Shown here: in pieces, positions 6,315 to 58,790 of the stretch
Layout: each line of letters opens with the position of its first letter
Position numbering within the stretch: position 1 is the stretch's first letter
NCBI GenBank assembly: GCA_964016885.1
Contig: OZ024751.1
Span: 42,780,001-42,844,000 of the forward strand
DNA: 64,000 nucleotides
Reading direction: 5' to 3'
DNA from: Eledone cirrhosa
Taxonomy: Eukaryota
Made by a program: the position numbers and the translations under genes
Notes under the pieces: model-generated
Seen by the model: only the letters and a program-made list of their open reading frames with translations
Told to the model about the DNA's origin: nothing
Databases searched by the model: none

Positions 6315-6588
6315 TAGTCCGAGCTGAAGATCCGCATAAGGTGAAACAATTGTTCTCGGTATGGTGAACTAACTCTTCCCATGGACTGAGTGCTCTACCA
6401 CTACTGATATAGCCCTCCAGTGTTCTACCTTTCTCCCTCTCTCTATATATATACTGTATATATATATATATATATATATATATATATATATATATATATA
6501 TATATAGTGGTAGAACACTGGAAGGTAATATCCGTAGTGGTAGAGCACTCAGTCCATGGGACGAGTTAACTGTTGTGTAACCACTTCT
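6315..6588 (+). mobile_element. family H4 element with an inverted partial copy across a (TA)n tract
   Basis: 6378-6429 is inverted at 6509-6560. Flanked by TA on both sides. Related to 40116-40252. Confidence 0.7.
6319..6359 (+). ncRNA. minimal type-I hammerhead ribozyme (family H4)
   Basis: CCGAG-CTGAAGA-TCCGCATAAGGT-GAAA-CAATTG-TT-CTCGG: perfect 5-bp stem I, palindromic stem III, GUU cleavage triplet. Confidence 0.8.
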
Positions 6589-6612
6589 ATGTATATATAT
6601 ATATATATATAT

Positions 6613-7106
6613 AGATTTTGAGTTTATGTTGGTTGTATACCAACACCTCAGTATGCAGCCTGGAGCACTCGACGAAGTGCGCAGGTTGGTTTGGTTACTC
6701 CGGAGTAGTATAAAATAAAGTTAAATAAAAAGTCAAATGATTAAAATTTAGCTTCGTTTATTACTGCTATATATATTTCAGTGACAGCCATCTTTGGCTG
6801 TGACCTCTTCAGGCAGTTTGAATTAGTATGGTATAGACAAGTACATATGTTGTTGAGGTGTATAATATTGTCAATACTCTGATATGATTCCAGTTCCTCA
6901 ATGAAATAACAACCCAACCAGGAACTGGGCATATCAAAGTATTGACAATATCATACACCTCAACAACATATGTACTTGTCTATACCATACTAATTCAAAC
7001 TGCCTGAAGAGGTCACAGCCAATGATGGCTGTCACTGAAATATATATAGCAGTAATAAACGAAGCTAAATTTTAATCATTTGACTTTTTATTTAACTTTA
7101 TTTTAT
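6613..7106. mobile_element. family H3 fold-back element in (TA)n, with an HHR on each strand
   Basis: Arms at about 6710-6890 and 6920-7107 are inverted; unique tail 6613-6709. HHRs at 6763-6817 (-) and 6999-7053 (+). Confidence 0.85.
6999..7053 (+). ncRNA. type-I hammerhead ribozyme (family H3); mirror copy 6763-6817 on the - strand
   Basis: ACTGC-CTGAAGA-GGTCACAGCCA..TGGCTGTCACT-GAAA-TATATATA-GCAGT-AATAAA. Confidence 0.85.
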
Positions 7107-7749
7107 ATATATATATATATATGTGACAAAAACCATAGACCCTCCATCTCAACTCTACTTTTGAAAAGCAGAAGAACTGCGTAACCGGTAAAGGAACCAA
7201 ATAAATACACGTATATATATTTTTTTAAAAATAAGACTCCAGTTGCATTTTCGATTTCATTTTTCTTTCTTTATACTTTCACTCGTGTAGGACACCTCAG
7301 TTATTTTTCATTTTGTAAAACAACCTCACTTTCTAATATATATATATATATATATATATATATATATATATATATATATATATTTGCTTAAAAATCTTAT
7401 ATAACCGGAACTATTCATTTAGCAAATTTTAAAGGAATGGAAAGATCCTACGTCAGTGTCAACGATAGCAGATCTTTATTTTTTCGTCCCGTTTTGTCGA
7501 ACTGCTAAGTTACGTGTCATAAATACTGAGAAATACAAGAACGTAAACACAAACACACACATACATACACACATACATACATAAATACATGCACAAGAAG
7601 AACAACAACAACAGAAACACCAAACAACATGGTAGATACGGACATTATTATATTTAGATAATAAATGGTTATAGATAATTATAGTGTTGCCTGGGTCTGG
7701 CTGTGTGTCTTCTTCCGACACTCAGCCTACGTTATACCAGTAACAACAC

Positions 7750-8510
7750 ACCCACCACCACCACCACCACCATCACCACACCACCATACCACCATACCAC
7801 CACCACCATACCACCATACCACCACCTCCTCCACCACCTCCACCATACCACCATACCACCACCACCACCACCATACCACCACCACCTCCACCACCACCAC
7901 CATCACCACCGCCACCACCACCATACCACCATACCACCATACAACCACCACCACCACCACCACCACCATACCAGCACCACTACGACCACCACCACCACCA
8001 TCATCATGTCACCATGCCACCATACCACCGTACCACCACCACCATCCCACCATACCACCACCACCACCACCACCACCACCTTCATCACCACCACCACCAC
8101 CACCACCTTCACCACCACCACCACCACCACCACCACCACCACCACCATGCCACCATACCGCCACCATACCACCATGCCACCATACCGCCACCACCACCAC
8201 CACCACCATACCACCACCATGCCACCATACCGCCACCACCACCACCACCACCATACCACCACCATGCCACCATACCGCCACCACCACCACCACCACCATA
8301 CCACCACCATGCCACCATACCACCACCACCACCACTATACCACCACCATGCCACCATACCACCACCACCACCACCATCCCACCATACCACCATACCACCA
8401 CCACCACCACCACCACCACCACCTTCATCACCACCACCACCACCACCTTCATCACCACCACCACCACCACCACCACCACCTTCACCACCACCACCACCAC
8501 CACCACCACG
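7750..8510. repeat. (CCA)n tract with a higher-order unit of about 42 bp
   Basis: CCACCATGCCACCATACCG recurs from about 8141, with 42-bp spacing between the copies at 8214 and 8256. Confidence 0.9.
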
Positions 8511-55155: not shown

Positions 55156-55347
55156 AGGAACCAGTAAGACCCCGACAGCTGAGCTCAAGCCGTTTCGACG
55201 GCTAATTCTGGACAGAATTAGCCGTCGAAACGGCTTGAGCTCAGCTGTCGGGGTCTTACTGGTTCCTATTACCCACTCTACTACCTCAAGTATTGAGTAC
55301 TTTGGTGCGTTATGGTCCACCTGGTTCCCTACCACATTTCCTTCGTT
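55156..55347 (+). mobile_element. intact H1 element
   Basis: Perfect 56-bp arms 55155-55210 and 55213-55268, tail to 55347, (TA)n on both sides. Confidence 0.92.
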
Positions 55348-57136
55348 ATATATATATATATATATATATATATATATATATATATATATATATATATATA
55401 TATATATATATATATATATATATATATATATATATATATATATATATATGTATATACATATATATACATATATATATATATGTATACATATATATATGTA
55501 TATATATATATATATAGATATAGATAGGTAAATATACACGGGTGTGTATGATTGTGTATAGAAGATTATATTAATAAGAGGAATTCCAACTTTGTCTGAT
55601 TTACTCGTTTTATTTACAATCCTTTAAAATATATATAATGGTATTATAATGAAATAGTATGATAGAATATTAAATTCTAAGTGTTAATTGAACAAGTACT
55701 TTCATGCTTTCGCAATCTTCAGGTTCATGATATGTGGTGACAGTCGAGTTTGCAATTTTCAACTGTCATATATATATATATATATATATATATATATATA
55801 TATATATATATATATATATACATATATATATATATATATATATATATATACATATATATATATATGTATATACATATATATATATATATATATATATATA
55901 TACATATATATATATACATATATATAAATATGTATACACACAGATACAAATATACAATAGAAGCTTATATCCACAACAACACTTGCCACGCCTAACGCTA
56001 AGTTGAAACAGGTGGTAACTTTAAAGAAAATTTCGCGAAAATATCAGAAGAAAAAATCTTAATGCTTCAAATATTGTAAAAACAAAAGTTAATGGAACAA
56101 GGTGGCGTTGTATCAAAATTTCATCTCTACAAATTACATAAGACTTGTGTTTCATTGTTATTTCAGAACGACATCTTTGTATATTTTTTTGGTTTGTAAT
56201 ATTGTATTTTGATGTATTTTATTTCAATTATAAATCTCCATAAATCATCAGTTAGAATCAGGTGATGTTTGCATATATATTGTTTCAGTGTGTGTGTGTG
56301 TGTGTGTGTGCGCGCACGTGCACGTACACACATTCATATATATATATATATATATATATATATATATATACATATATAGATATATAGATAGATAGACGTA
56401 GATGTTTATATCTATATATATATATATATATATATATATATATTCATATATATATATTTACACACACGCGCACACACACCTATATTATACACACACACAC
56501 ACACACACACATATATATATATATATATGCAGTGAGAGAGAGAAAGAAAGATATATATATGTACTGTATATATACATATATATATATATATATATATATA
56601 TATATATATATATATATATATACACACATATATATGCATACACATACACACACAGAGACAAATATATATATATATATATATATATATATATATATATATA
56701 TATATATATATATATATATATGAGGAAAGTCCTCCGGCGTGTTGGACGTGATTGTTATGTAAATCTATTTTATATTTCTGCCAGAATACTGGAGACATAT
56801 TCTCACAGCAATTGTTCTGAGGAAAGAAATATTATTTCAAGCTATGAGATGATAGACACTTCCATTCTCTCTCTCTATATATATATATAGCATTCAGGTT
56901 GTTGATCCTATTTTCGAAGTGGAATACTTTATATATATATATACATCTATGGTTCAGCTAACCACTCGACTCCCGGGAATGAATATGACCGCAGCTAGTA
57001 AACAAGGACCCACACCCCACCCTCCCGCACCAAAATTAGACTTATCGTCCCCTACTTTTGCTCTTTACTCTCTTTACTCTTTGTTCTTGAATGTTTGGTT
57101 GGTAGAGTCCATAACACCAATCAAACCCCTTTTATA

Positions 57137-57180
57137 GCTCTGACGAATCCTACGGTTACGTAAGAAGAAACATTGTAAGC
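57137..57180 (+). ncRNA. type-I hammerhead ribozyme (family H12) in TA-flanked element of about 56890-57226
   Basis: GCT-CTGACGA-ATCCTACG GTTA CGTAAGAA-GAAA-CATT-GTA-AGC-CAATAAA. Confidence 0.7.
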
Positions 57181-58573
57181 CAATAAAAATCTTTTGATGT
57201 TGTAGACGCTCTTGTGTCTTTTATCATATATATATATATATTGGTAAACGGAAAAGAAAATGCTGACAAATTGTTCACAGTGAAAAATAGTTTAATTAGG
57301 AATAAGTGAAAATTAGTAATAGTATTGGTTAGTATTCAGTTTTGGTTTTAAGTTTAACCGGTTGCGCATTTCTAATGCTTTTCAAAAATAATTTTGAGAT
57401 AGAGCGCCCGTGATGTTTGCTCTAATCTGTATATATATATATATATATATATATATAGTAAGAATATTTTCGAAACAGCGAGTGGGATTGAAATTATTAG
57501 AAATTATTAGAAATTTTGACTAAAGAAATTAAAGAAATTATTTAGCCTGATAGTGGGGTTAAGAACCCTCGGAGAAATGGAAAAAGATGAGTATTGACGT
57601 ACATATATATATATATATATATATATATATATATGTGTGTGTGTGTGTGTGTGTAATGTACGATGCAGAATTTTCGGCTTTTGAAGCGATGAGAATATAT
57701 GTAATTATATAAGTATAAGAACGTACTGAAGTACAAAAATGCTATAAAGATACCTTATAAAATAGGATGAAATCTCTTAAAAGACGGTTAAAAATGTTGC
57801 CATCGGCTGTTATAAGGAATTGAACCAATGGAAGATGTCAATTCCTGTCTTCCATACATTGAAAGGAAATATTTTAGCGACAGTGATATTTTTTTTTTTT
57901 ACTTTTTGTCTATTCTAATGTTTTTAAGGTAAAAGATGAACAGATTTAAAAATAAAACTGACAAATTTTCTGTTTGCTTTCAAACTGCGAGTAACTACTA
58001 GTGTCATACTGTCAAATGTTAGTCAGGAGATTGTTGTGAGACAATTTACATATCAAAGCTGTTTCTTTTACAATTGACATTTCGGTGAGATTATCGAATC
58101 TGTACAGCATCGCCGTTTCAGTGTTGAAACTGTCGATAGTTCTAACAAAAAAAAAAAACAAAACCAACCAAATATAGCAAAGAAGTCTATAAAATCTATA
58201 AAGTCTTATAATAAATGTATAGCCTTTTTTTGTCAGTCTCTCATATGAACAATAAGTTCTGTCAAAAGTGTTCTAAATTATTCTATTTATAACAGTTTTG
58301 ACTATCTTTCTGTTTGTCTGCCCGTTTATCTGTTTGTCTCTCGTCTTCCTTCTTTCTCGCTCTCATTCTCTCTCACTTTCTCTGTCTCTATTCCTTTCTC
58401 TCTCTCTCTCTCGCTCTCTCTCTCTCTTTCTCTCTCTCTCTCTCTCTCTCTCTCTCTCTCTCTTTCTCTCTCTCTCTCTCTCTCTCTCTCTCTCACTCTC
58501 TCTCTCTCACTCTCTCTCTCCCTCTCTCTCTCTCTCTCTTTACACACACACACACACATTTATATATATATAT

Positions 58574-58790
58574 AAACAAAAGACAAGATGGAATAAAAGA
58601 ATAAGACCAGAAAGAAAAGGCACAAAAGAAACCAGATAACCATTGAAGAGGTCACAGAAAGTGTGAAGAAAGAACTTTGATAAACTAACAAATAACTAGT
58701 AACAAAAGATAATGTAAAAAAAAAATGTGAAAAAATCATATGGTGGGTGTGTTACTTTTTATTGGCAATAATGGCAACATGCCAACAATA
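58574..58790 (+). mobile_element. old H6 copy with a mutated HHR core (TTGAAGA)
   Basis: TTGAAGAGGTCACAGAAAGTGTGAAGAAAGAACTTTGA and a downstream TTATTGGCAA...CATG match the minus strand of about 14690-14915. Confidence 0.65.

What the first reader, a model, noticed from the sequence alone, without database searches (positions are those of the whole stretch)
6315..58790. About 10 families of ORF-less, hammerhead-ribozyme-bearing fold-back elements that colonise (TA)n microsatellites
Seen: about 20 minimal type-I HHR motifs in 64 kb (6319+, 6763-, 6999+, 9823-, 9980+, 13048+, 14391+, 14800-, 15059-, 15464+, 17035+, 17675-, 18077+, 18250-, 29753+, 32973-, 40174+, 42650 on both strands, 45461-, 48069-, 54612+, 57137+). 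The families share little beyond the catalytic core, yet converge on one design: a short, often self-complementary stem III (CAATTG, CTAG, TGCGCA, TATATATA), often AATAAA just 3' of the ribozyme, insertion in or beside (TA)n, and frequently an inverted arm plus a unique tail. Established: Penelope-like elements carry such minimal HHRs in their pseudo-LTRs, have 3' tail extensions and form inverted pLTR structures; metazoan non-LTR retrozymes are small HHR-containing non-autonomous units. Inference: much of the apparent microsatellite DNA here is a landing pad for a diverse radiation of PLE-dependent mini-retroelements that I do not know to be described in this form.
Basis: partly seen in the sequence, partly recalled or inferred. 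Interest (0 to 1): 0.9.

Follow-up and report, generated by a model that had tools for sequence, protein, structure and literature searches.

The report
Penelope retroelement stumps carrying hammerheads
These small hairpin-shaped repeats in TA microsatellites are mostly the short ends of about a dozen protein-coding Penelope-like jumping genes, a known by-product, but here they give an estimated quarter of a million ribozyme-like motifs in one genome, with enough copies to test how these elements likely start copying themselves.

Summary
The reading as ORF-less mini-elements mostly fails. The shared design is inherited, not convergent. Hammerheads in pLTRs, (TA)n targeting, inverted truncated arms and one-sided tails are all published. 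One family is a true tandem retrozyme; three remain unlinked.

What goes beyond the papers read:
- about 277,000 motifs genome-wide (184,000-380,000);
- 88 of 97 head-to-head pairs carry the tail on exactly one arm;
- 5' ends cluster at family-specific points near the ribozyme, likely run-off from the RNA start;
- a recurring hairpin just past both 3' ends;
- two families with altered catalytic cores.

This scan reached the same reading earlier on other DNA of this genome. Verdict: new members of a known kind.

The parts
6320..6432 (+). Family C 3' end (HHR core 6324), internally deleted; Hydra-type parent
   Evidence: EN upstream of C in L054, L007, L271
6494..6590 (-). Family C tail-region fragment facing the copy above across (TA)n
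6613..7105 (.). Family A head-to-head pair: left arm (-) with tail, right arm (+) without; HHR cores 6812-, 7004+; Hydra-type parent
9783..10184 (.). Family A head-to-head pair: left arm without tail, right arm with tail; HHR cores 9872-, 9985+
10257..10508 (+). Family I (tandem retrozyme) 3' fragment without HHR
10785..10968 (.). Family M fold-back holding only the 3' half of an HHR; Hydra-type parent
12318..12772 (.). Two family M fold-backs (12318-12511, 12579-12772) separated by (TA)n
12996..13178 (.). Family E fold-back, apex at the HHR core; parent ORF not found
14144..14586 (.). Family D head-to-head pair, HHR core 14399+, tail on the right arm; Hydra-type parent
14611..14971 (.). Family B pair (damaged HHR 14838-, tail on the left arm); Neptune/Nematis-type parent
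15009..15192 (-). Family D-related single copy, HHR core 15115
15465..15562 (+). Family F copy, HHR core 15469; Hydra-type parent
17041..17133 (+). F-related damaged copy
17291..17427 (.). Family M fold-back
17472..18137 (.). Family G pair, HHR cores 17717-, 18081+ (CCGAAGA core), tail on the left arm; Hydra-type parent
18215..18469 (-). Family H copy, HHR core 18312; Hydra-type parent
29558..30005 (.). Family I: one retrozyme monomer (+, HHR core 29759) with an inverted tail arm (-, 29558-29620)
30024..30317 (-). Family B2 copy (weak HHR 30270); Neptune/Nematis-type parent
31969..32232 (.). Family B fold-back made only of sequence 3' of the HHR
32845..33095 (-). Family D-related copy with tail, HHR core 33029
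33284..33400 (.). Family M remnant
40116..40250 (.). Family C fold-back, HHR 40179+ lacking its cleavage site
42200..42373 (.). Family M fold-back
42589..42776 (.). Family E fold-back; intact HHR 42642-, the + copy lacks the 5' strand of stem I
42792..42982 (.). Family M fold-back
45440..45516 (-). Degenerate family E copy
47098..47216 (.). Family M fold-back, internally deleted
47265..47360 (.). Family K copy with variant core CAGAAGA; Hydra-type parent
48044..48266 (.). Family H-related pair: damaged HHR (48130-) and an inverted tail arm
52687..52756 (-). Family D-related 3' fragment
54549..54712 (+). Family A2 copy (HHR core 54617), related to A; parent ORF not reached
55154..55347 (.). Family M fold-back
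55513..55767 (-).
56991..57225 (+). G2: HHR-like motif 57140 with a 3-bp stem I; no relative in the DNA fetched
58611..58790 (+). Old, degenerate B-related copy
59846..59903 (-). Family K 3' fragment

Best explanation
Most of these elements are short pLTR-plus-tail ends of protein-coding Hydra-type and Neptune-type Penelope-like retrotransposons, sitting in (TA)n, and they were likely written in by the parents' endonuclease and reverse transcriptase working from both sides of a break.

Shown: each linked family continues 5' into a PLE ORF; in four families the tail reads on into the ORF start, giving the canonical pLTR-ORF-pLTR layout; families have two fixed 3' ends about 55-180 nt apart; head-to-head pairs nearly always have one long end and one short end; arms are truncated independently.

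Inferred: the GIY-YIG domain nicks both strands in (TA)n. Each nick primes cDNA at one of two internal start sites on element RNA, as shown in vitro for an anole PLE. The two cDNAs stop early and are joined head to head. Many very short copies likely arise from priming in the upstream pLTR and running off the RNA's 5' end near the hammerhead. The hammerhead is carried along because it lies just upstream of the start sites. Solo stumps would be dead on arrival, since they lack the sequence past the distal start site. A minority (family I, perhaps E) are non-autonomous riders that use the same machinery.
For: Parents. A: staggered 5' ends along one 2.2-kb reference, a 490-aa RT ORF and a GIY-YIG domain. 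B and B2. C, F, K, M. D, G, H. J. Motif-level match to the Hydra alignment rows, CxCX5C linker, RWK-like and DKT motifs.

Autonomous copies. 55 of 58 scored matches have no internal stop; 19 of 30 loci show the HHR 235-238 nt upstream of the ATG. The tail reads into the ORF start in A, G and H, and F has its HHR 288 nt before the ORF's N-terminal match.

Insertion signature. Two discrete 3' ends per family and 286/380 ends at TA. 88/97 pairs have a tail on exactly one arm, 48.5 expected, p about 1e-17.

Short copies. In 544 kb not chosen by family, 115/133 copies start within 150 nt of the HHR, with family-specific peaks.

Literature: two internal RT start sites define the tail and both strands are cut and extended (PMC11167929); the Penelope promoter is internal, with its start 46 nt before the intron whose end maps to helix I (PMC2377424; PMC4209133).
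Against: No ORF was reached for E (30 + 20 search loci and 5 longer stretches), A2 or G2. Family I is ORF-less. The peaked 5' ends also fit dedicated short masters: in M, subfamilies other than the main one are almost all short (2 of 56 long, against 7 of 17). Some window copies of D are only 74-87% identical to the ORF-linked reference, so their own parents are assumed. Clade assignment rests on motifs; no tree with reference elements was built, and the endonuclease tree is mostly unresolved. The 133 copies include some B tails cross-matching B2. Nothing here measures cleavage, transcription start or priming.
Confidence: 0.87

Rival explanations
1. One reading: most families are dedicated non-autonomous mini-retroelements, copied from short master loci by PLE proteins in trans.
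For: Most copies are tiny and their 5' ends are peaked. Family I is a real ORF-less tandem unit. E stays unlinked, with over 1 kb of microsatellite-like upstream sequence. Some M subfamilies lack long copies in my sample.
Against: 11 families run into PLE ORFs with a ladder of truncation points. Apex junctions mostly differ from copy to copy. Stumps lack the motif that lies past the distal end in full elements. My own candidate mini-element, J, proved ORF-linked once a query bias was removed.
Confidence: 0.09
2. They are MITE-like DNA transposons with terminal inverted repeats that target TA, and the hammerhead likeness is incidental.
For: Fold-back shape and TA flanks.
Against: Arms are of unequal and variable length, with a one-sided tail. 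They are continuous with RT and GIY-YIG ORFs. Motif frequency is far above shuffles.
Confidence: 0.01
3. The elements are PLE ends, but the fold-back forms from one cDNA that snaps back on itself and is later resolved by the endonuclease, rather than by priming from two nicks.
For: Some apexes fall on internal hairpins (family A, 6882-6898). PMC8557442 suggests endonuclease resolution for the tail.
Against: Either arm can be the longer one (22 tail arm, 28 tail-less arm, 25 equal), with junctions joining distant points of the element. In vitro both strands are cut and extended from two sites.
Confidence: 0.15

Closest known systems
Hydra clade of C-terminal EN+ Penelope-like elements (Craig et al. 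2021, PMC8557442; includes Hydra-1_Obim)
   Same: RT plus C-terminal GIY-YIG, CxCX5C linker, DKT and RWK-like motifs, hammerhead in the pLTR, (TA)n insertion, inverted 5'-truncated copies, one-sided tail.
   Different: At least eight divergent families in one genome; a unit of about 4.0 kb with a long 3' UTR (published: generally under 3 kb); tails of about 55-180 nt (published: 30-40 bp); two families with altered catalytic cores.
Neptune/Nematis PLEs (PMC8557442 passages and supplementary alignment rows)
   Same: Families B, B2 and J have a C-terminal GIY-YIG domain preceded by a CxxC-type linker; J has the full CX4CxxC.
   Different: B and B2 could not be placed between Neptune and Nematis; no full-length copy was examined.
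Minimal hammerheads of metazoan PLEs (Cervera and de la Pena 2014, PMC4209133)
   Same: Type I, short palindromic helix III, many families per genome, mostly single or opposite-strand pairs ascribed to truncated PLEs.
   Different: Estimated about 277,000 motifs here against about 9,000 in Xenopus and 4,000 in coelacanth in that paper (different descriptors, so a rough comparison).
Poseidon PAc of Anolis (Frangieh et al. 2024, PMC11167929)
   Same: Two internal RT start sites that define the tail; AT-rich target cut on both strands; HHR just upstream of the ORF start.
   Different: Another clade; the one-tail-per-pair rule and the 5'-end peaks are not treated in the parts I read.
Metazoan non-LTR retrozymes (PMC7229834; preprint 10.64898/2026.07.22.740005)
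   Same: Family I: tandem ORF-less monomers of about 425-447 nt, each with a type-I hammerhead.
   Different: It also shows the PLE insertion signature (two 3' ends about 57 nt apart, inverted arm, TA flanks). The papers propose PLE mobilisation from co-occurrence and phylogeny. Applies to one window family only.

Membership tests
Hydra-clade PLE (A, C, D, F, G, H, K, M) | RT followed by a C-terminal GIY-YIG endonuclease in one ORF | tested here: met
   Intact 737-aa ORFs in a D-related subfamily; RT and EN pieces for A, D, K, F, C; only EN seen 5' of the HHR for G, H, M, with ORF starts after the tail for G and H
Hydra-clade PLE (A, C, D, F, G, H, K, M) | CxCX5C linker before the EN | tested here: met
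   Present in A, D, F, H, K, M; G and the C copy examined each lack one cysteine; definition
Hydra-clade PLE (A, C, D, F, G, H, K, M) | N-terminal RWK motif and DKT in place of DKG | tested here: met
   DKT in A, D, G, H; RWK in A, RWR or RWI in D, G, H; not seen for C, F, K, M
Hydra-clade PLE (A, C, D, F, G, H, K, M) | Hammerhead in the pLTR; pLTR-ORF partial tandem | tested here: met
   HHR 235-290 nt 5' of the ORF start and again in the 3' UTR; K and M have non-canonical cores
Hydra-clade PLE (A, C, D, F, G, H, K, M) | Insertion into (TA)n | tested here: met
   286/380 ends against 5-9% background, all families pooled; distal ends
Hydra-clade PLE (A, C, D, F, G, H, K, M) | Placement in the Hydra clade on an RT tree with reference elements | not tested
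   Only a by-eye comparison with published alignment rows and an EN tree without reference elements
Neptune PLE (J; B, B2) | CX2-5CxxC linker before a C-terminal GIY-YIG domain | tested here: inconclusive
   Met for J. B shows CxxC but not the first cysteine in the copy read, so Neptune or Nematis
Non-LTR retrozyme (family I) | ORF-less tandem monomers of 150-450 nt, each with a type-I HHR | tested here: met
   Direct repeats at about 425-447 nt spacing in 6 of 30 loci, some units partly deleted; trimers in L266, L267
Non-LTR retrozyme (family I) | Expression as linear and circular RNA; self-cleavage | not testable with these tools
   No RNA holder listed; needs bench work
   11 families linked to ORFs; E, A2, G2 unresolved
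MITE / TIR DNA transposon | Fixed, symmetric terminal inverted repeats | tested here: not met
   Variable unequal arms and a one-sided tail
MITE / TIR DNA transposon | Target-site duplication | tested here: inconclusive
   Cannot be read inside (TA)n; no empty site recovered

The most novel reading that the evidence does not exclude
The stumps record an undescribed PLE insertion route. A protein dimer holds two element RNAs, paired through the hammerhead's palindromic stem III. A twin hairpin positions one RT at each of two start sites. Priming in the upstream pLTR makes strong-stop-like run-off cDNAs that are joined head to head. The hammerhead would then act mainly as an RNA pairing module, which would fit two abundant families that keep the fold but have altered catalytic bases, and the same machinery would spread true retrozymes to give one of the densest hammerhead loads known.
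Probability: 0.17. Interest if true: 0.72.

Novelty: new member of a known kind. Interest (0 to 1): 0.36.

Why it matters
How Penelope-like elements make their inverted, one-tailed insertions, and what the hammerhead is for, are open questions (PMC8557442, PMC11167929). This genome offers young, intact Hydra-type ORFs and very many footprints, with clear predictions: two start sites used once each per insertion, a hairpin just past each site, and 5' ends at the RNA start. It also suggests that several percent of a probably octopod genome is PLE debris that annotation tools could file as MITEs or unknown repeats. The kind of element and its general anatomy are already known.

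Tried and rejected
Rfam scan: no hammerhead in the 150 rows shown, which microsatellite hairpins dominate; uninformative. 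The repeat finder on the whole window: swamped by microsatellites. Pfam on five ORF pieces: only a weak RVT_1 hit for family B.

Family J as a fixed-length non-autonomous mini-element (30 of 30 loci with one 5' end): rejected. The query's first base selected against long copies; by-catch copies L064 and L261 extend upstream and L261 reaches a Neptune-type EN.

My first label of family A as Neptune: corrected to Hydra.

Family E: an apparent read-through in L031 was a neighbouring, different repeat. An exact pattern for the E tail followed by the hairpin motif found 0 (weak, as the pattern was a guess). Upstream walking reached only microsatellite-like sequence.

RNA runs: no RNA holder listed. 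Contigs laid on 9400-10260 gave no empty site. The EN tree was mostly unresolved.

A strict pattern for the tail hairpin matched only 3 of 11 tails because of my cut points and spacer limit; the wider claim rests on reading the printed sequences.

The second half of a length-proportional genome sample could not be fetched, so the density estimate is stratified instead. Lunse et al. (PMC5785218) is not held, so I could not check whether the K and M core changes are among its variants. Supplements of the 2026 preprint were not seen.

Full report
1. Observation. The window lies at G000:C11:42780001-42844000 in a 3.0-Gb genome. About 23% of it is simple repeat, against about 10% in random stretches. 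The closest named homologue of a parent protein is from Argonauta hians (44% identity), so the host is probably an octopod (inference). A structural type-I hammerhead descriptor finds 13 strict and 16 relaxed hits. Shuffles give 0.05-0.13 and 0.20-0.49 (maxima 2 and 3 in 100). Stem III is fully palindromic in 12 of 16 window hits, and self-dimers are predicted to be 3-15 kcal/mol more stable than two monomers (folding prediction only). Across all DNA fetched by then, 323 hits fell into 17 clusters of two or more, cleaving mostly at GUA or AUA. AATAAA is a trait of three families only.

2. Parents. I searched the genome with the 5'-most part of each family and walked upstream. Family A copies end at staggered points along one reference, from about 50 nt to over 2 kb upstream of the ribozyme, and long copies hold an RT ORF and a GIY-YIG domain. 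The same holds for B and B2, C, F, K and M, D, G and H, and J. A, C, D, F, G, H, K and M are Hydra-type by the CxCX5C linker and by motif-level agreement with the published rows; J is Neptune-type; B and B2 are Neptune or Nematis. The endonuclease domains of six other Hydra-type families are about 30-50% identical to the D-related protein, which explains why their pLTRs share little beyond the core: descent with divergence, not convergence (inference). A protein search gave 101,019 first-look candidates; 55 of the 58 scored have no internal stop. Of 30 loci, 28 hold full ORFs of one D-related subfamily (737-742 aa; one reads 975 through an upstream TA run), 19 have the hammerhead 235-238 nt before the ATG, and three copies on C7 lie in tandem at 4,011 nt. 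In A, G and H the tail reads on into the ORF start. No PLE ORF lies in the window itself.

3. Exceptions. Family I forms tandem ORF-less units of about 425-447 nt in 6 of 30 loci, with two 3' ends about 57 nt apart, inverted arms and TA flanks: a retrozyme with a PLE footprint. E was followed more than 1 kb upstream through degenerate microsatellite without reaching an ORF. A2 extends at least 280 nt upstream in one copy. G2 has no relative in hand. E and A2 carry the tail hairpin seen in the Hydra-type families (read by eye), so they probably use Hydra machinery.

4. Insertion signature. Of 380 ribozyme-bearing 3' ends, 286 abut TA repeats, against 4.8-8.7% of random positions; 227 have an inverted partner (most loci were search-selected, and the references for K, H and C lacked full tails, which lowers the count). 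Families have two discrete 3' ends: A +100/+200, B +190/+245, D +105/+195, E +55-60/+125, G +55-75/+235, J +155/+210 from core C3. Among 97 head-to-head pairs, 88 carry the tail on one arm only, 5 on both and 4 on neither; independence predicts 48.5 (one pair is counted twice through a duplication). Arms are truncated independently, either may be longer, and most junctions are unique. In 544 kb not chosen by family, 115 of 133 copies of ORF-linked families begin within 150 nt of the core and 2 extend beyond 1 kb. The 5' ends are peaked: M +36 to +46 in 22 of 30, E -7 to +2 in 13 of 16, K -5 to +12 in 10 of 18. These points are not the cleavage sites. A motif of the form [GA]CTCC...TGAGC lies just past the distal end in A, D, G and H, and a similar one follows the proximal end in the Hydra-type tails but not in B, B2, J or I (by eye; a strict pattern caught 3 of 11). 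K has the core CAGAAGA in most readable copies and M has CTGAGAA, with stems intact.

5. Scale. In 62 ten-kb stretches at fixed positions there are 57 hits (shuffle mean 1.0, max 3). Weighted by chromosome class this gives about 277,000 motifs (bootstrap 184,000-380,000); 13 of the 62 stretches hold a PLE protein match. Hit number rises with TA content (Spearman 0.49, p 0.001, 42 stretches). My incomplete library covers 11.9% of the window and 5.7% and 4.8% of two random samples. In the window 46 of 144 (TA)n tracts abut a library element; whether insertion lengthens the tracts could not be told.

6. Mechanism. Shown: parentage, two ends, one tail per pair, TA targeting, independent truncation. 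Taken from the literature: a Poseidon PLE cuts and extends both strands of AT-rich DNA, starts reverse transcription at two internal sites that bound the tail, needs RNA 3' of them, and does not need hammerhead cleavage in vitro (PMC11167929). Inferred: each nick uses one start site, the two cDNAs are joined head to head, and the very short copies are run-off products from the upstream pLTR, since the Drosophila Penelope RNA starts shortly before its hammerhead (PMC2377424 with PMC4209133). RT stalling at the structured region and short master loci remain possible for the peaks.

7. What is known. PMC8557442 (passages; section 11 whole; supplement searches) describes the Hydra clade with hammerheads and (TA)n insertion, lists an octopus member, and describes inverted truncated copies and one-sided tails. 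PMC4209133 (parts 1-2 of 4) reports many minimal-hammerhead families per genome and opposite-strand pairs as probable truncated PLEs. PMC11167929: parts 1-2 of 4. PMC7229834: passages (up to 120,000 retrozymes in axolotl). Preprint 10.64898/2026.07.22.740005: part 1 of 5 and passages. PMC13282606: passages (31 recently active Penelope-like families in Octopus vulgaris, no mention of ribozymes). PMC2377424 and PMC6765202: passages. Seven literature searches showed no paper on hammerhead load in cephalopods, the one-tail statistic or the twin hairpin; subscription papers and Repbase or Dfam were not searchable. Earlier notes of this scan reached the same reading on other DNA of this genome; I read them after linking all families but J.

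8. Verdict. These are new families of a known kind, mostly by-products of autonomous PLEs, with one true retrozyme among them. Interest 0.36, for the scale and for the testable mechanistic regularities.

Noticed in passing
window 40350-40905: A further TA-flanked, multi-copy repeat (family S) with inverted ends and only the first half of a hammerhead core (40421-); recalls the 'half core' noted for octopus Naiads in PMC8557442. Parent not sought.
   Followed up: partly
   Followed up: partly
window 248-290, 750-803, 3492-3524, 9334-9440, 15294-15760, 32500-32700, 53800-54000: Very abundant SINE-like repeat (over 120 hits in the DNA held); I recall it as an octopus SINE, which no call confirmed. 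A piece of it sits inside the family M 3' UTR reference.
   Followed up: no
L131, L110, L103 (upstream of family E); L016 1983-3270 (family F 3' UTR): Element bodies themselves carry long degenerate (TATG)n and (TG)n tracts, so PLEs may also spread microsatellite-like DNA rather than only land in it.
   Followed up: partly
G000: Family J is very young: 37 of the 40 scored copies are identical over 128 nt; several apexes hold short tandem repeats of the 5'-end sequence, suggesting repeated template jumps.
   Followed up: partly
L031 830-1120 and L302-L320: Another abundant repeat (1,963 first-look candidates) with two discrete ends and inverted partners; no hammerhead noticed by eye in L031, not scanned further.
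   Followed up: no
window 7122-7335, 39540-39790, 54887-55066, 57241-57430: More multi-copy segments flanked by (TA)n on both sides that are not in my library; probably further PLE ends.
   Followed up: no
window 2290-2650: An inverted-repeat element of about 360 nt outside TA context, with matching ends of about 30 nt; may be a true MITE.
   Followed up: no
window 34367-34566: A 200-base N gap interrupts a family M tail.
   Followed up: no
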